From positions 1-64,000 of IMG/VR virus record IMGVR_UViG_3300042923_000502: 64,000 nt of DNA; one strand, given 5' to 3'. Origin of the DNA: a virus. Under the pieces are notes generated by a model. The model worked only from the letters and a program-made list of their open reading frames with translations, was not told where the DNA came from and made no database searches. Positions 7,766 through 43,993 of this stretch are shown here, in pieces (the stretch's first letter is position 1; the number at the start of each line of letters is the position of its first letter). The position numbers and the translations under genes were made by a program.

Positions 7766-7770
7766 ATGTA

Positions 7771-7845
7771 TACGTAGTGTGAGAATCGAACTCAACCAAT
7801 AGTGGCATATAAGACCACCTCCACCCACCAGATGGAATACTACGC
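7771..7845 (-). tRNA. tRNA-Ile(TAT)
   Basis: GTGGT-CTTATAT-GCCAC anticodon arm; acceptor GCGTAGT/ACTACGT. Confidence 0.8.
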
Positions 7846-7855
7846 ATATTTAAAA

Positions 7856-7927
7856 TGGACTCTAGTGGTAACGCACCACTCTCTATACCGTTTCAAGGTA
7901 TCGCTAATCTATCTCAGCTAAGAGTCC
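7856..7927 (-). tRNA. tRNA-Phe(GAA), atypical T-loop
   Basis: ATACC-TTGAAAC-GGTAT; T-loop TGCGTTA. Confidence 0.75.
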
Positions 7928-8770: not shown

Positions 8771-8849
8771 TGGCTCAGACTATTGGACTTGCACCAATGA
8801 CACCTCTCGAAAAAGAGAGATAAGCTTTAGCTAGTTAAGCTAAGTCTGA
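8771..8849 (-). ncRNA. tRNA-like RNA with 8-bp anticodon stem and 6-nt loop, encoded CCA
   Basis: TCAGACT/AGTCTGA-G-CCA; TATCTCTC-TTTTTC-GAGAGGTG; T-loop TGCAAGT. Confidence 0.65.
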
Positions 8850-18343: not shown

Positions 18344-18419
18344 AGCCCTTCGACAGAATTGAACTGCCACCTGCGGAATACGATTTTTGTCCGCTATTCT
18401 ACCATTAAACTAAAAGGGC
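18344..18419 (-). tRNA. Thr-like tRNA with a 12-nt anticodon loop
   Basis: GCCCTTT/GAAGGGC-T acceptor; GCGGA-CAAAAATCGTAT-TCCGC. Confidence 0.65.
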
Positions 18420-18426
18420 ATATAAG

Positions 18427-18511
18427 GGTGCGCGACGAGACTCGAACTCGCAAGGGAATTACTCCCACCAGATTCACAATCTGACGTGTTTACCTTTCCA
18501 CCACGCGCAAC
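18427..18511 (-). tRNA. tRNA-His(GTG) with a long variable arm
   Basis: G-1:C73, TCAGA-TTGTGAA-TCTGG, variable hairpin GGGA-GTAAT-TCCC. Confidence 0.82.
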
Positions 18512-18521
18512 ATATTAAATC

Positions 18522-18731
18522 TTAAAATCTTTCGCATTCAACTAACGTTTCATGGTCAGCAATGTCAAAAATAAATTTTCCCATTTCATAAAATGTTTTT
18601 ATTACATAGCTTTGAAATCCATTTGAATCAACTTCTGGAATTACAGCTACCACTTCACAAACAATATTATATGGCGATCTGAATCTACTTCCTACTTCAA
18701 AAATTTCCGTCACTAAAACATCTCCATTCAC
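18522..18731 (-). CDS. Hypothetical protein
   Basis: 69-aa ORF; start uncertain. Confidence 0.5.
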   Translation of the reverse strand: MNGDVLVTEIFEVGSRFRSPYNIVCEVVAVIPEVDSNGFQSYVIKTFYEMGKFIFDIADHETLVECERF

Positions 18732-18745
18732 GTTAATAAAAACAA

Positions 18746-19111
18746 TATTTCTGACATAGCAGCCATGTACAAACCATCAAGCGCAATTCACAACCCGCTA
18801 TGAAACTAAACCATGGATTTTATCGAATGGGCTAGTTAGGACTTACATGCCTAACTTCTTAGCCCTGAATTTTGCACCTTCATCTTTGACTCTGCACTCT
18901 TGGCAGACAATAAGAGTCTTGAGTCTTCACAGTTGATCACTTGAGCTTTAAGCTTTGATCTTTATATCCCAATTTTCTAATTAGATAGAAGTAATTTGAT
19001 ATATCCATCAAATATCTTTTATTTGCTCGTAATAAGCACTGTATTAACAATGTTAACCTACATTGTAAGAAAAGGTGTGAAAGTTCGACGGTTTTCGCTA
19101 TGCCAGAAATA
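18746..19111 (-). ncRNA. Candidate ~366-nt structured RNA with 7-nt periodic repeats
   Basis: 15-bp closing helix UAUUUCUGGCAUAGC/GCUAUGUCAGAAAUA (one G-U), internal hairpins, about 12 AAAGNUC-like heptamers. Confidence 0.7.
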
Positions 19112-19163
19112 GGTAGTTTTATTTATTTAACGTGCATGATCTACCAAACAAACACATCATACA

Positions 19164-19808
19164 TTATTCCGAAACTTCGATGTCTGTGCGCGTATTGCTC
19201 TCACTCAGCAAAAAGTCTGCTTCGTTTTCAAACTCTTCAATCTTTTCTTGAAGTTCATCAATTACGACTTTAAGTCCGATTGGATCAACAAGGGTTGTGA
19301 GATTATCTTTGTTGAATAGTGCCGTGATGTTTTCAATCTCACTCTTCTTGCTTTCATCCTTCTTGGCATCTTTGCCCAAGATATTCTCAATACGCTTTTC
19401 AAGAGTAGCTTCCGCTTCTCGATTAGCACGTTCAAGTGAAGTTACCGCTTGATTGTACTGGTATTTCAACGTTTGAAGAAGTGTCTTTTCATAGACAATT
19501 GAACTTTTACGTTCGATCACTTCTGCAACCGTATATTCAACGCCACTAGGAAATTTAACTACCGTAATAGCATTAGAAGCAACAATTGCCGATTTGATTT
19601 TATTTCTACGTTCAACAAGAGCATTTACCTTGTCGATAGAAGCTTTTGCCAAAACTTCAAAATCTTTCAATGTAATGTGACCATTGATAAGTTTTTGACC
19701 AAGTTGAGTAGTAATGAACTTACCCTCACTAATTGCACGATTGATCCGACCATCCAGAAGTTTCAATTCGCTCAAAGCTCTTGTAATAGAAATATTTGCC
19801 ATTTGCAC
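19164..19808 (-). CDS. Helical/coiled-coil protein, tentatively DIP1984-like
   Basis: N-terminal ITRALSELKLLDGRINRAI and C-terminal FENEADFLLSESN motifs; AAGGAG RBS. Confidence 0.7.
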   Translation of the reverse strand: MQMANISITRALSELKLLDGRINRAISEGKFITTQLGQKLINGHITLKDFEVLAKASIDKVNALVERRNKIKSAIVASNAITVVKFPSGVEYTVAEVIERKSSIVYEKTLLQTLKYQYNQAVTSLERANREAEATLEKRIENILGKDAKKDESKKSEIENITALFNKDNLTTLVDPIGLKVVIDELQEKIEEFENEADFLLSESNTRTDIEVSE

Positions 19809-19934
19809 ATTTCTCCTTTTTATCTTTGAATTTTATTATTTTATCAAAAAGCTTGACGAGACTAACGAGGATGATGTGGGATCAACATCGTCAAGCTTTT
19901 TCATAAAATATCTTGTTCTCAACTTTACTTCTAT

Positions 19935-19963
19935 ATTATATCATTTTATCTTTCATTTGTCAA
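19935..19963 (-). promoter_or_regulatory. sigma-A-type promoter (family member) followed by leader hairpin 19846-19901
   Basis: TTGACA-aatgaaagataaaatga-TATAAT; AAAAAGCTTGACGA/TCGTCAAGCTTTTT 14-bp stem. Confidence 0.8.
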
Positions 19964-19985
19964 GCTGTTTTTTAATTTATTTTTT

Positions 19986-20059
19986 TGGCAGGAGCAACAG
20001 GAATTTAACCCATACCCTTGAGGTTGGAACTCAAGATGCTAACATTACACCATACTCCC
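19986..20059 (-). tRNA. tRNA-Trp(CCA), encoded CCA
   Basis: TTGAG-TTCCAAC-CTCAA; ends GCCA; own promoter 20074-20102. Confidence 0.8.
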
Positions 20060-20073
20060 AAAGTGATAATCAT

Positions 20074-20102
20074 ATTATATCATTTTATCTTGTACTTGTC
20101 AA
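20074..20102 (-). promoter_or_regulatory. sigma-A-type promoter (family member)
   Basis: TTGACA-agtacaagataaaatga-TATAAT. Confidence 0.8.
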
Positions 20103-20546: not shown

Positions 20547-21752
20547 TTAAATAAGTTCAGCAAGTTCCGCTGTTCTACTACGTTCGGTTTTATCAAGTGT
20601 AACTTGAGCATAAAGCTCATGACCTTTAAGCTTAGAAATAGCTTGAATACCAGAATTGTGTCTAAATGAATCTTTATCAATTTGTTTTAAGTCTCCATTC
20701 AACCACAATTCTGAGCCTTCGCCAATACGACCAAGAAGTAATTTAACATGTTCTTCGGTATTGTTTTGAGCTTCCGTAACATATACAATACTATTGCGCA
20801 AATCCCGTCCTCTAATGCGTGACAAGTCTTGCAATTCAACCATTCCGGCTTCAACCATTTTACGCAACATTTCCACTCCACCAACATGATCCGCTAAAGG
20901 CATTGCAAATTCGATCATCTTGTCGAATAAGTCGCCTTTTCTAAATCCACTTTCAGGTGCATCTTTCAATGGAATTTGGTTTCTAATAAAAACAATTTTT
21001 TGGAACTTTTGATTTTCTATTAGGTGAACTGCATGAGATATCATACAGAAGTCTTTACCTGTGCCAAATTTGCCGAAACAAGATTTAACGGTTGTCTTTC
21101 TGTCTTGGAGCATATTGAACAAAAGTTCTTGTTTCATATTTCTAGGTCTAATTTCACCTAAATACTTGCTACTAATTCTATTGTATTTAACAGCAATATA
21201 ACCATGTTCATCTGACCATCTATACTTGTCTACATACTTTCCAGATTTATCTATAATGACAACATACTCATTGTCAAACAATTCGAACATGTTAGTATCC
21301 AAGTTCTCATAAAACTCAGCAAGTTCTTCGTCGCTTAAAACGACTTCATATACGCCAGTATAATCATCTTCATCACTTTCATATGATTCCGCTTCAATAA
21401 ACTCGATTCCAAATCCTAATGCTTTAAACTTCAAAAGCTTGTCATTTGTAATTAAACCATATCCTCTTTCTAAGCAAGCTTTGACAATAAGATTGTCAAC
21501 GTAATCATTTTCATATGGATCACTAGAATTCCAAGTATAATCATGTAGATCAAAATGAACAAGATCATCTTCCATGTGATCATCAATCCATCTTACCGCT
21601 TTTCTTGCTCCATAAGCCAAATCTTTCTTATCTCTATTGCTCTTATGCTTTTCCAATTCACGCAAAACGTGACTTAAAATTACAATCTCCTTTCCTTCAA
21701 GAACTGACAAATCATTAACAAGAACGTTAGTATCTACCACGTATTTTGTCAT
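20547..21752 (-). CDS. phoH: PIN-domain PhoH-family ATPase
   Basis: PIN VVDTNVL / VLRELE / DNLI / ITNDK; PhoH GKFGTGK, IRGRD, EAQN, RIGEGS, GDLKQID. Confidence 0.92.
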   Translation of the reverse strand: MTKYVVDTNVLVNDLSVLEGKEIVILSHVLRELEKHKSNRDKKDLAYGARKAVRWIDDHMEDDLVHFDLHDYTWNSSDPYENDYVDNLIVKACLERGYGLITNDKLLKFKALGFGIEFIEAESYESDEDDYTGVYEVVLSDEELAEFYENLDTNMFELFDNEYVVIIDKSGKYVDKYRWSDEHGYIAVKYNRISSKYLGEIRPRNMKQELLFNMLQDRKTTVKSCFGKFGTGKDFCMISHAVHLIENQKFQKIVFIRNQIPLKDAPESGFRKGDLFDKMIEFAMPLADHVGGVEMLRKMVEAGMVELQDLSRIRGRDLRNSIVYVTEAQNNTEEHVKLLLGRIGEGSELWLNGDLKQIDKDSFRHNSGIQAISKLKGHELYAQVTLDKTERSRTAELAELI

Positions 21753-43034: not shown

Positions 43035-43241
43035 ATGGCAATGATTCAGTCACACTATGAGATCAACGTTTCACTTAATGGTAGGCACTTATTTGCGACA
43101 GCGGAGAGAAGTTGCGTAACACAGGACGATTTAAATAAGGTATTAGACATATTTGTTGCCAAGTTTCCAAAATCAGAAGGATATAAAATATCTTACTCTC
43201 ACATTAAATGTGAAGGAAGATCAAAGGAAGTCAGAAACTAA
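43035..43241 (+). CDS. Array hypothetical protein
   Basis: GAGG RBS. Confidence 0.75.
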   Translation: MAMIQSHYEINVSLNGRHLFATAERSCVTQDDLNKVLDIFVAKFPKSEGYKISYSHIKCEGRSKEVRN

Positions 43242-43333
43242 TTCGGTCAATGATAGCACCTTGTATAAACATATTATATAAGGTGTAATTGATTCACTGA
43301 ATTAACAAATAAATTAAAAAAGGATGATTAAAT

Positions 43334-43993
43334 ATGTTTATGACAAAACAATATCCGACAGTTTACGAGAAGTTTGGTGATGTCAATCCTATTGAACATG
43401 GCGGAGGTCTTTACACAGAAATTTCCGATGGCGTATTCGATATTATTCATATCGAACCAGATCAAAACAGATGTGATCTTGGTTGGTTTAATGTGGTTCA
43501 AGTTGACACAAACGATTCTTGGATTCAGGAGAAGAAAGAAGGCTTGTTTTCGACTTATGATATGAACGAATCACAGAATAATAGCATCGACTTTGCTCTT
43601 GCCTGCATCGGATATTTTGGAATCGAAAATTTTGGTGGAGATCAAAGTTACGAAATGCTGATTGACAAAAGGGATATTGAAGAGTCATTGAATGAAGTTA
43701 TTACAGAAAACTTTATCCAAGATGATAACACTATCAGATGCAAGGTTATCAATTATTTCGATGTATGGGGCAATCAGAAAGATGGTTATCAAGTTAATAA
43801 CATGTGCAATGAAGGTGAAATCACAGTTCCTAAAGATGCATCCAACAGAGATGTTGTCGATGCATTAAAGAAAATGGGATTCTTCAAAAAACATGTTCGT
43901 ATGAATATGTGTCAGTTTGAAAGTGCATATATCGACGTATGGGTAATTAACGATTCAAAAGGAAAACCTGTTTGTTGCGTTGAGCCACTATAA
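43334..43993 (+). CDS. Array hypothetical protein, probably two domains
   Basis: GDVNPIEHGG N-domain and DVWGNQKDGYQVNN C-domain. Confidence 0.8.
   Translation: MFMTKQYPTVYEKFGDVNPIEHGGGLYTEISDGVFDIIHIEPDQNRCDLGWFNVVQVDTNDSWIQEKKEGLFSTYDMNESQNNSIDFALACIGYFGIENFGGDQSYEMLIDKRDIEESLNEVITENFIQDDNTIRCKVINYFDVWGNQKDGYQVNNMCNEGEITVPKDASNRDVVDALKKMGFFKKHVRMNMCQFESAYIDVWVINDSKGKPVCCVEPL

What the first reader, a model, noticed from the sequence alone, without database searches (positions are those of the whole stretch)
18746..19808. Coiled-coil protein gene followed by a closed ~366-nt RNA with 7-nt periodic repeats: candidate ribonucleoprotein system
Seen: about 50 nt after the stop of the 214-aa helical protein, the minus-strand transcript opens a 15-bp helix (19111-19097) that closes at 18760-18746 with a single G-U pair. 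It encloses hairpins (e.g. GUUAGG/CCUAAC within GGGCUA/UAGCCC) and a run at 18963-18867 reading AAAGAUC AAAGCUU AAAGCUC AAGUGAUC AACUGUG AAGACUC AAGACUC (hairpin) AAGAGUG CAGAGUC AAAGAUG AAGGUGC AAAAUUC. The unit has its own promoter and leader hairpin and heads a tRNA cluster. Established: periodic single-stranded repeats are how oligomeric rings such as TRAP or Hfq wrap RNA. Inference: the protein (tentatively DIP1984-like) oligomerises on its cognate RNA, one heptamer per subunit, forming an uncharacterised RNP or an RNA-antitoxin/autoregulatory pair.
Basis: partly seen in the sequence, partly recalled or inferred. Interest (0 to 1): 0.82.

Follow-up and report, generated by a model that had tools for sequence, protein, structure and literature searches.

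The report
Heptamer-repeat knotted RNA with partner protein
Right after a small helical-protein gene this phage encodes a real, doubly knotted 366-base non-coding RNA with a row of 7-base units, and the same uncatalogued gene-plus-RNA pair recurs in phage T5, hundreds of other phages, tRNA gene arrays of cyanobacteria and Bacillus chromosomes, so it is probably an undescribed protein-RNA particle whose function can now be tested.

Summary
Window 18746-19111 (minus strand) is a conserved structured RNA, not chance. Its closing helix is 99.6% paired across 23 non-redundant relatives, and all 11 scored pairs show compensatory changes. Two pseudoknots and a 5-bp 3' helix also covary. A 7-nt periodic array (consensus R-N-U-Y-A-A-N) is family-wide.

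No Rfam 15 family matches, and RAGATH-19 and RAGATH-27 specifically do not. I found no paper describing it.

The RNA is tightly linked to the upstream 212/214-aa gene (phrog_1491, mislabelled 'tail fiber'; T5.085 in phage T5):
- RNA-first searches recovered a full-length gene copy in 35 of 37 loci.
- Protein-first checks found the RNA in 22 of 23 loci. These include T5-like, rV5-like, Bacillus, Lactococcus, Vibrio, Pseudomonas and jumbo phages, cyanobacterial tRNA arrays, and stand-alone Bacillus and Paenibacillus chromosomal operons.

The protein folds as a DIP1984-like helical bundle of unknown function, and modelling supports self-association.

That the protein coats the heptamers, one unit per subunit, is plausible but not shown.

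This scan has already noted the same pair on at least eight other windows, so it is new to the literature I could search but not new to the scan.

The parts
19935..19963 (-). Consensus sigma-70-type promoter (TTGACA, 17 nt, TG-TATAAT) driving the protein gene and the RNA
   Evidence: 12 of 12 matches with extended -10. A second identical-type promoter at 20102-20074 drives tRNA-Trp.
19846..19900 (-). Leader hairpin (AAAAGCUUGACG...CGUCAAGCUUUU) followed by a U-tract, between promoter and RBS. Possible attenuator; role unknown.
   Evidence: Sequence. Not analysed further.
19813..19834 (-). Heptamer-like unit (AUUCAAAG) a few bases 5' of the Shine-Dalgarno GGAG of the protein gene
   Evidence: the same unit sits next to the SD in relatives L004, L011 and L008. 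T5-like and Klebsiella phages have 3 phased units there. The statistic is weak.
19164..19808 (-). Gene for a 212/214-aa helical protein (phrog_1491; homolog of T5.085), DIP1984-like fold
18746..19111 (-). The 366-nt structured non-coding RNA (whole)
19098..19111 (-). P1 closing helix, 5' strand
   Evidence: 11 scored pairs, 99.6% paired in 23 sequences, all 11 with double-sided changes, 0 of 500 shuffles reach this
18746..18759 (-). P1 closing helix, 3' strand (directly after the invariant GGCUG)
19087..19097 (-). Invariant C-GAAAAC junction. Its AAACCGUC (19094-19087) is the 5' strand of long-range pseudoknot PK-A.
   Evidence: 7 pairs 96.3% paired against 81.6% in shuffles (0 of 500), 3 pairs with compensatory changes
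18771..18778 (-). PK-A 3' strand (GAUGGUUU), lying inside the P3' helix, hence a pseudoknot
19047..19076 (-). PK1, an H-type pseudoknot (S1 ACCU/AGGU, S2 ACAAUG/CAUUGU, then UAA)
   Evidence: found in all non-cyanobacterial members with covarying S2. A tRNA takes its place in most cyanobacterial copies.
18916..18964 (-). Family-wide heptamer array, about 7 units here (UAUAAAG GAUCAAA GCUUAAA GCUCAAG GAUCAAC UGUGAAG ACUCAAG)
   Evidence: period 7 in 30 of 32 members, 5-15 units in most members, invariant U and A two bases apart
18829..18915 (-). Lineage-specific insertion with two hairpins (GACUC.../...GAGUC and GGGCUA...UAGCCC). Absent from most family members.
18815..18827 (-). Near-invariant UUCGAUAAAAUCC (T-loop-like UUCGA). 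Its CC starts helix P3'.
18763..18816 (-). P3' domain: 5-bp helix CCAUG/CAUGG enclosing a hairpin and the PK-A 3' strand, ending in the invariant GGCUG
   Evidence: 97.4% paired against 73% in shuffles. RNAalifold recovers it independently, with 3 pairs showing compensatory changes.
18522..18731 (-). Downstream 69-aa ORF of unknown function. Context only, not conserved with the pair.
18344..18510 (-). First tRNAs of the downstream cluster (tRNA-His and a second tRNA)

Best explanation
The locus is a two-part module transcribed as one unit from the promoter at 19963-19935. It holds a 212-aa DIP1984-like helical protein and, about 50 nt after its stop codon, a 366-nt non-coding RNA.

The RNA is a rigid scaffold. 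It has a 14-bp closing helix P1, the invariant CGAAAAC junction pseudoknotted to GGUUU near the 3' end, an H-type pseudoknot, a T-loop-like UUCGAUAAAAUCC and a 3' helix ending in GGCUG. The scaffold displays a single-stranded array of U-Y-A-A heptamers.

Shown here:
- The RNA fold is conserved and covaries.
- The array is family-wide.
- RNA and gene travel together across distant phages and bacteria, including stand-alone chromosomal operons with their own terminator.

Inferred:
- The protein self-associates and uses the conserved basic end of its bundle (R8, K14, R19, R65, R66, K70, N77, R98, K99) to bind successive heptamers, forming a ribonucleoprotein particle assembled in cis on its own transcript.
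- Heptamer-like units next to the gene's Shine-Dalgarno sequence may let the same protein limit its own translation.

The cellular role is unknown. The recurrent home in tRNA clusters and horizontally spread tRNA arrays points to tRNA or translation biology during infection or translational stress.
For: RNA is real:
- Fold z = -4.09 in the window and -5.69 in T5.
- P1 is 99.6% paired, 11 of 11 pairs with compensatory change, shuffles 58.8 +/- 2.5%.
- PK-A and P3' also exceed all 500 shuffles.
- P3' is recovered independently by RNAalifold.
- PK1 has a covarying S2.
- Period 7 appears in 30 of 32 members.

Linkage, RNA first: a pattern scan plus a P1 filter gave 37 loci.
- 35 have the full gene immediately upstream on the same strand.
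- One more keeps only the gene's C-terminal third.
- One is too short to tell.

Linkage, protein first: 22 of 23 loci have the RNA.
- 5 of 5 close relatives.
- 9 of 10 GenBank phages sampled across 729 records.
- 3 of 3 Bacillota genomes.
- 5 of 5 further cyanobacteria.
- The strict RNA pattern occurs in 0 of 295 protein-negative cyanobacterial genomes.

Operon structure:
- No promoter-like site between gene and RNA.
- The gap is only 6-15 nt in some phages.
- A terminator-like hairpin with a U-run follows the RNA in the Bacillus and Paenibacillus chromosomal copies (sequence read).

Protein:
- Model pLDDT 92.9.
- The conserved polar and basic residues fall at helix ends next to the small beta-sheet.
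- The four-copy model scores 0.50 against a best control of 0.11. The runs share at least 89% of their contacts and partner pLDDT is at least 80. That mark was reached by 20 of 30 proteins solved as pairs of one chain and by 1 of 23 solved as single chains.

Leader units.
Against: - No direct evidence of binding, of a discrete processed transcript, or of expression.
- The protein has no recognised RNA-binding domain.
- Bacillus phage KLEB27-3 has the protein followed by a terminator and no detectable RNA anywhere in its genome, so the protein can exist without an adjacent RNA.
- One metagenomic phage keeps the RNA with a truncated gene.
- The modelled interface is a closed two-fold dimer, which does not by itself explain a row of 7-15 units.
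- The leader-repeat statistic is weak: mean chain 1.15 against 0.92 in shuffles (5 of 500 reach it), and 3 of 33 leaders against 1 of 85 controls have 3 phased units.
- The window's own period-7 signal is modest (z = 2.7).
Confidence: 0.55

Rival explanations
1. The RNA works on its own as a structured RNA tied to tRNA or translation biology, for example as a decoy, sponge or scaffold for host tRNA-processing, tRNA-modifying or tRNA-cleaving enzymes, or for the ribosome. The upstream protein would only be a co-expressed helper such as a chaperone or stabiliser, not a stoichiometric coat on the heptamers.
For: - The pair sits in or beside tRNA clusters in most phages and inside cyanobacterial tRNA arrays.
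- The variable domain is replaced by a genuine tRNA in cyanobacteria and by a tRNA-like, YrlA-like module in Erwinia phage Desertfox (44.5 bits, below threshold).
- The near-invariant UUCGAU equals the tRNA T-loop sequence, and heptamers such as GUUCAAA resemble T-arm sequence.
- Such tRNA arrays are induced under translational stress in Anabaena (PMC8421152, PMC10272220).
Against: - Stand-alone Bacillus and Paenibacillus chromosomal copies have no tRNA nearby.
- The very tight gene-RNA linkage over great evolutionary distance is easier to explain by direct partnership.
- The tRNA-mimic idea rests on short sequence resemblances only.
Confidence: 0.2
2. It is a toxin-antitoxin-like or autoregulatory pair. 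The protein would be harmful or tightly dose-limited, and the RNA array would titrate it, as RNA antitoxins do in type III systems. Heptamer units in the 5' leader would give feedback on translation.
For: - The two-gene module is mobile. It occurs in phages, in horizontally spread arrays and as isolated chromosomal islands.
- A repeat RNA lies next to a protein gene.
- Heptamer-like units abut the SD in the window lineage, and three phased units do so in T5-like and Klebsiella phages.
Against: - Gene order, the 7-nt repeat size and the helical-bundle fold all differ from known type III systems.
- There is no convincing PADLOC match (best E 0.0066 and 0.00062 to unrelated long proteins).
- KLEB27-3 carries the protein without the RNA, which argues against an unpartnered toxic protein.
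- The leader statistic is weak.
Confidence: 0.12
3. The RNA is a cis-acting 3' UTR element, either a stabiliser or processing signal for the protein's mRNA or a 5' processing platform for the downstream tRNAs, with no trans function.
For: - It is co-transcribed with the gene, with no promoter between them.
- In relatives a tRNA starts about 10 nt after P1.
- In Bacillus it lies between the stop codon and the terminator.
Against: - The downstream neighbour varies (tRNA, ORF, terminator, opposite-strand gene) while the RNA core is constant.
- Two pseudoknots, a T-loop-like motif and a conserved periodic array over about 300 nt far exceed what known 3' stabilisers need.
Confidence: 0.08

Closest known systems
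HutP with the hut leader RNA, and TRAP with the trp leader RNA (Bacillus subtilis)
   Same: An oligomeric protein reads a row of short trinucleotide-type units at fixed spacing on single-stranded RNA. HutP's NAG-N4 spacing also gives a 7-nt period (my knowledge, not tested here).
   Different: - Those proteins are beta-rich rings. This one is an elongated helical bundle, modelled as a two-fold dimer.
- Their sites lie in 5' leaders that control a terminator. Here the array is held inside a closed, doubly pseudoknotted RNA downstream of the protein's own gene.
- No sequence or fold match to either protein appeared.
GOLLD (RF01998) and ROOL (RF03087) large non-coding RNAs
   Same: Large, ornate, function-unknown RNAs that are frequent in phages and prophages and often next to tRNA genes (my knowledge).
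   Different: - No Rfam match at E <= 10.
- This RNA is smaller (240-440 nt).
- It has an obligate partner gene and a heptamer array, which those RNAs lack.
Bacterial Y RNA (YrlA) with the Ro protein Rsr
   Same: A closing stem formed by the 5' and 3' ends plus, in some members, a tRNA-like module, with a dedicated partner protein gene next door. The Desertfox insert gives a sub-threshold YrlA hit.
   Different: - The partner is not a TROVE/Ro protein.
- The window RNA has no YrlA match.
- The tRNA module is optional.
- Y RNAs have no heptamer array or double pseudoknot.
Type III toxin-antitoxin systems (ToxIN, AbiQ/antiQ)
   Same: A protein gene is paired with an adjacent repeat-containing RNA, and the pair is mobile among phages and bacteria.
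   Different: - There the RNA repeats are about 36 nt, lie upstream of the toxin gene and are cut by a ToxN-fold endoribonuclease.
- Here the units are 7 nt, the RNA lies downstream and the protein is a DIP1984-like bundle.
DIP1984 protein of Corynebacterium diphtheriae (PDB 3kdq) and the DUF6847 family
   Same: Best structural match of the protein: VIA-align Z 11.2 over 151 residues against 7.8 for the next hit, and Foldseek probability 0.99.
   Different: - Only 12-13% sequence identity.
- No Pfam or NCBIfam model matches the window protein.
- The function of DIP1984 is itself unknown.
tmRNA with SmpB
   Same: Similar size, ends paired, pseudoknots flanking a single-stranded stretch, and a small partner protein.
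   Different: - No tRNA-like acceptor, T-arm or CCA end, and no tag reading frame.
- ARAGORN and Rfam find no tmRNA.

Membership tests
Any Rfam 15 family (4227 models) | Covariance-model match at or near the gathering score | tested here: not met
   No match on the RNA at gathering score or at E <= 10 on 18400-20100. None appeared in 30 related loci, T5-like, Bacillus and cyanobacterial copies included. Only embedded tRNAs and one sub-threshold YrlA hit in Desertfox were found.
RAGATH-27 (RF03100) and RAGATH-19 (RF03096), named as closest by earlier notes of this scan | Match of the family model to the RNA | tested here: not met
   no match at 18746-19111 in the whole 170-kb genome even at E <= 10. 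The best hits elsewhere are 17 and 12 bits, against cut-offs of 76 and 86.
tmRNA | tRNA-like domain (acceptor stem, T-arm, CCA) and a tag-peptide reading frame | tested here: not met
   ARAGORN reports no tmRNA and Rfam none. The 3' end is ...GGCUG plus the P1 strand, with no T-arm or CCA.
Type III toxin-antitoxin | Tandem repeats of about 34-36 nt upstream of the toxin gene | tested here: not met
   The units are 7 nt, lie inside a folded RNA and are downstream of the gene. Tandem Repeats Finder finds no array.
Type III toxin-antitoxin | ToxN/AbiQ-fold endoribonuclease toxin | tested here: inconclusive
   The model is an all-helical bundle whose best match is 3kdq, and no ToxN-like row was listed. 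PADLOC gives no meaningful hit. A family that is not listed is not excluded.
TRAP / HutP type RNA-binding attenuation proteins | Ring-forming beta-rich protein of the TRAP or HutP fold | tested here: inconclusive
   The predicted fold is five helices plus a small sheet. Neither protein appears in the fold or sequence searches, but absence from a list does not exclude it.
TRAP / HutP type RNA-binding attenuation proteins | Row of short conserved units at fixed spacing on single-stranded RNA | tested here: met
   A period-7 array with an invariant U and A two bases apart, 5-15 units in most members, in 30 of 32 members. This is a likeness in how it may work, not membership.
DIP1984-like fold (PDB 3kdq) | Structural superposition clearly above background | tested here: met
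   Z 11.2, 151 residues aligned, rmsd 8.3 A, next hit 7.8. Foldseek E 0.047, probability 0.99. The high rmsd and helical composition make this fold-level only.
DIP1984 / DUF6847 sequence family | Match to the Pfam or NCBIfam model | tested here: not met
   No such hit at E <= 0.1. DUF6847 appears only on 16% of a distant Atlas cluster (score 0.87, TM 0.54).
phrog_1491 ('tail fiber protein') | Full-length profile match | tested here: met
   E 1.5e-61 over 3-213 of 214 residues. The label is probably wrong: the gene lies among early, tRNA-region genes, and the fold is not fibre-like.
GOLLD / ROOL | Match to RF01998 or RF03087 | tested here: not met
   Absent from cmscan at E <= 10.

The most novel reading that the evidence does not exclude
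The pair is a previously unrecognised, widespread ribonucleoprotein of tRNA-rich phages (T5 included) and mobile tRNA arrays. Dimers of a DIP1984-like protein would line up on the U-Y-A heptamer array of a doubly pseudoknotted scaffold RNA. The particle would act in the contest over tRNAs and translation, for example by sequestering or mimicking substrates of host tRNA-directed nucleases or processing enzymes, while heptamer units in the mRNA leader give feedback control.
Probability: 0.2. Interest if true: 0.9.

Novelty: categorically new. Interest (0 to 1): 0.85.

Why it matters
Phage T5 is a classical model, yet 440 T5-like GenBank records carry this roughly 357-nt RNA and none of the 60 sampled annotates it as an RNA. 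The partner gene is widely mislabelled 'tail fiber'.

A conserved protein-RNA module shared by Demerecviridae, rV5-like, Herelleviridae, lactococcal 949-like and jumbo phages, by cyanobacterial tRNA arrays and by Bacillus chromosomes implies a general function that has been missed so far.

Because T5/E. coli and Bacillus are tractable, the function can be tested directly by deletion, pull-down, EMSA and cryo-EM. The result could bear on why phages and mobile arrays carry tRNA clusters.

At the least, it defines a new RNA family for Rfam and corrects an annotation error repeated across these phage records.

Tried and rejected
- Direct nucleotide search of GenBank phages with the locus found nothing, and the protein scan of IMG/VR found nothing. 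Relatives came from the protein collection and from a motif scan instead.
- MAFFT misregisters the A-rich 5' junction by one column in about a third of rows. RNAalifold therefore recovered only P3', and the count of structure pairs could not be used for P1. I counted pairs in Python on motif-anchored positions, with slid and shuffled controls.
- No covariance model was built, because a model of about 300 nt would exceed the calibration limit.
- RNA expression: no RNA holder was listed. The only full holder is a soil metagenome DNA run that may be the source of the window.
- tmRNA, RNase P-like, group I intron and Y RNA readings were considered from sequence resemblances and dropped for lack of any model match.
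- A protein-coding reading of the gap was rejected. There is no conserved ORF, and the substitutions are compensatory in helices.
- I could not establish whether the cyanobacterial protein is Anabaena All4315, a hypothetical protein linked to tRNA arrays in PMC8421152. The source names do not say.
- Literature searches for T5.085, DIP1984, heptanucleotide repeats with phage tRNA clusters, and T5 transcriptomes gave nothing relevant. A 2026 survey of cyanobacterial RNA structures does not mention tRNA arrays.
- A second copy of the RNA in KLEB27-3 was sought by motif. The one near-match is not the RNA.
Full report
**What is in the window.**
- On the minus strand a 12/12 consensus promoter (19963-19935) is followed by a leader hairpin with a U-tract (19900-19846).
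- Next comes an RBS and a 214-aa ORF (19164-19808; the collection's gene call starts at ATG 19802 and gives 212 aa).
- Then there is a 432-nt stretch with no ORF, a 69-aa ORF, and tRNA-His plus further tRNAs.
- The 5' and 3' ends pair as described, and the GGGCUA/GUUAGG hairpin is there.
- No promoter-like site separates gene and RNA.

**The RNA is conserved and its helices covary.**
- The nearest relatives of the protein (55-64% identity, including a Paenibacillus contig) all have a non-coding gap after the gene.
- Those gaps align with the window RNA. They share an invariant CGAAAAC, UUCGAUAAAAUCC and GGUUUGUAC..GGCUG, and the closing helix changes sequence while staying paired.
- I used the 3' motifs as a pattern to scan IMG/VR, one genome per species, and metagenomes.
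- I kept hits in which the bases just 5' of (C)GAAAA pair with the bases just 3' of GGCUG. This gave 37 further loci with RNAs of 239-403 nt.
- On 23 non-redundant sequences, counted on motif-anchored positions:

| Helix | Pairs scored | Paired | Shuffles | Shuffles reaching it | Compensatory pairs |
|---|---|---|---|---|---|
| P1 | 11 | 99.6% | 58.8 +/- 2.5% | 0 of 500 | 11 of 11 (3-6 pair types per position) |
| PK-A (AAACC.. of the junction with ..GGUUU) | 7 | 96.3% | 81.6% | 0 of 500 | 3 |
| P3' (UCC.. with ..GG of GGCUG) | 5 | 97.4% | 73.0% | 0 of 500 | 3 |

- Slid registers for P1 give only 29-54% paired.
- The 3' strand of PK-A lies inside P3', so the two form a pseudoknot.
- RNAalifold finds P3' independently.
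- An H-type pseudoknot (PK1) follows the junction in every non-cyanobacterial member. Its second stem differs freely in sequence but always pairs.

**The heptamers.**
- Lag-7 self-identity peaks in 30 of 32 members. It reaches z = 9.8 in cyanobacterial copies but only 2.7 in the window.
- Chains of units spaced exactly 7 nt (occasionally 6 or 8) run to 5-15 units in most members. The consensus is R-N-U-Y-A-A-N, and the U and the A two bases later are the fixed points.
- In the window about seven units (18964-18916) belong to this array.

**Linkage to the protein gene, RNA first.**
- Of the 37 loci found by RNA features alone, 35 have a full-length homolog of the protein immediately upstream on the same strand. 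The gap is usually 9-90 nt.
- One keeps only the C-terminal third of the gene.
- One is too short to tell.

**Linkage to the protein gene, protein first.**
- tblastn finds the protein in 729 GenBank phage records.
- I sampled ten across that diversity. Nine have a 320-500-nt unannotated gap holding a divergent member of the same RNA, with P1 of 12-20 bp, the junction motif, PK1, the heptamer array and the ..AAAUCC..GGCUG domain.
- The nine are Shigella SSP1 (T5-like), Klebsiella VLCpiM5b, Vibrio Gary, Pseudomonas UNO-G1W1, Bacillus BM15, Lactococcus AM1, Erwinia Desertfox, Escherichia 24-2-1 and Erwinia KEY.
- The exception is Bacillus phage KLEB27-3, where a terminator follows the gene and no RNA is found in the genome.
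- In T5 itself the gene is T5.085. The RNA lies at 43140-43496 of NC_005859.1 and folds with z = -5.69.
- 440 T5-like records carry the RNA at 89% identity or more, and none of the 60 sampled annotates it as an RNA.

**The pair in bacteria.**
- The pair stands alone, with a terminator-like hairpin, in a Bacillus chromosome (CP042252.1) and in Paenibacillus rhizovicinus (CP048286.1). It is also on a 202-kb Clostridium botulinum element.
- In a sample of 301 cyanobacterial genomes, six have the protein and all six have the RNA right behind it. The strict RNA pattern occurs in none of the 295 others.
- There the module sits inside long tRNA gene arrays, and a genuine tRNA replaces PK1 within the RNA in most copies.
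- Such arrays spread horizontally and are switched on under translational stress in Anabaena (PMC8421152, PMC10272220).

**The protein.**
- It matches phrog_1491 full-length but no Pfam, NCBIfam or PADLOC family convincingly.
- The AlphaFold model (pLDDT 92.9) is an elongated bundle of five helices with a small sheet at one end.
- The best solved match is the function-unknown DIP1984 protein 3kdq: Z 11.2 against 7.8 for the next hit, Foldseek probability 0.99.
- The invariant and near-invariant polar residues (R8, K14, R19, R65, R66, K70, S76, N77, R98, K99, S202, N203, T206) lie at helix ends next to that sheet. This reading of their placement from the secondary-structure map is my inference.
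- A four-copy model scored 0.50 against a best control of 0.11. The runs agree in at least 89% of contacts and partner pLDDT is at least 80. That mark was reached by 20 of 30 proteins solved as pairs of one chain and by 1 of 23 solved as single chains.
- The interface is reciprocal and parallel, so it is a dimer rather than a ring. This supports self-association but does not show it.

**How it most likely works.**
- Shown: a conserved, knotted scaffold RNA with a periodic single-stranded array is co-transcribed with, and evolutionarily bound to, this protein gene.
- Inferred: the protein binds the array through its conserved basic end, probably as dimers covering neighbouring units, and forms a ribonucleoprotein assembled on its own transcript.
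- A further lead: heptamer-like units lie just 5' of the gene's Shine-Dalgarno sequence. In the window this is AAAAUUCAAAGAUAAAAAGGAG, also present in three relatives.
- T5-like and Klebsiella phages have three phased units there, which would allow feedback on translation.
- The statistic for that lead is weak.
- The biological role is open. The tRNA context suggests translation or tRNA biology, but the stand-alone Bacillus copies show that tRNAs are not required in cis.

**Comparison with what is known.**
- No Rfam 15 family matches the RNA here or in 30 related loci.
- RAGATH-27 and RAGATH-19, named as closest by earlier notes of this scan, do not match this genome's RNA.
- tmRNA, Y RNA, GOLLD/ROOL, type III toxin-antitoxin and TRAP/HutP each share some features but fail their defining tests (see the membership table).
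- Full-text searches found no description.
- Earlier notes of this scan describe the same pair on at least eight other windows. The family is therefore not new to the scan, and my independent tests agree with those notes.

**Verdict.**
- The RNA family and its partnership with the protein gene look real and undescribed.
- Binding, stoichiometry and function remain to be shown.

Noticed in passing
window 20074-20102 and 19935-19963 (-): Two perfect 12/12 sigma-70-type promoters with extended -10 share nearly the same spacer (..AGATAAAATGA..). The first drives tRNA-Trp alone, the second drives the protein gene plus RNA.
   Followed up: partly
window 19846-19900 (-): A long hairpin followed by UUUUU lies between the promoter and the RBS of the protein gene. 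It looks like an intrinsic terminator or attenuator placed inside the leader.
   Followed up: no
L029 2869-2924 (-) (Capilliphycus salinus chromosome, tRNA array): A 56-nt stand-alone match to bacterial 23S rRNA positions 1093-1148 (54 bits, above threshold) sits among the tRNA genes of the array that also holds the protein-RNA pair. By my knowledge these positions are the L11 / GTPase-associated-centre stem.
   Followed up: no
L089 1941-2004 (Erwinia phage Desertfox): Inside this jumbo phage's copy of the RNA is a tRNA-like insert whose T-arm precedes its acceptor and D-arm (a permuted order). It gives a sub-threshold match to the Y RNA-like family YrlA (44.5 bits, cut-off 69).
   Followed up: partly
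L029, L032, L115-L117 (cyanobacterial copies): A complete tRNA with differing anticodons is embedded within the RNA between the junction and the heptamer array. If RNase P and RNase Z excise it, the RNA would become two pieces held together by P1 and PK-A.
   Followed up: partly
L067 (metagenomic phage), just upstream of its RNA: Only the last 86 codons of the partner gene remain (96.5% identical to a sister phage). The N-terminal two thirds have been replaced by unrelated sequence while the RNA is intact.
   Followed up: partly
window 20547-21752 (-): A PIN-PhoH fusion gene, together with an HU-like gene in the relatives, keeps its place just upstream of the pair in the relatives and in a 202-kb Clostridium botulinum element.
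   Followed up: no
window 18344-18419, 7856-7927, 8774-8849 (-): Rfam's tRNA model finds three tRNAs that ARAGORN does not list. ARAGORN in turn lists a tRNA-Ile (7770-7846) that is missing from the Rfam table.
   Followed up: no
L063 1375-1839: A sub-threshold group I intron match (35 bits, cut-off 50) lies a few kb from that phage's copy of the pair.
   Followed up: no
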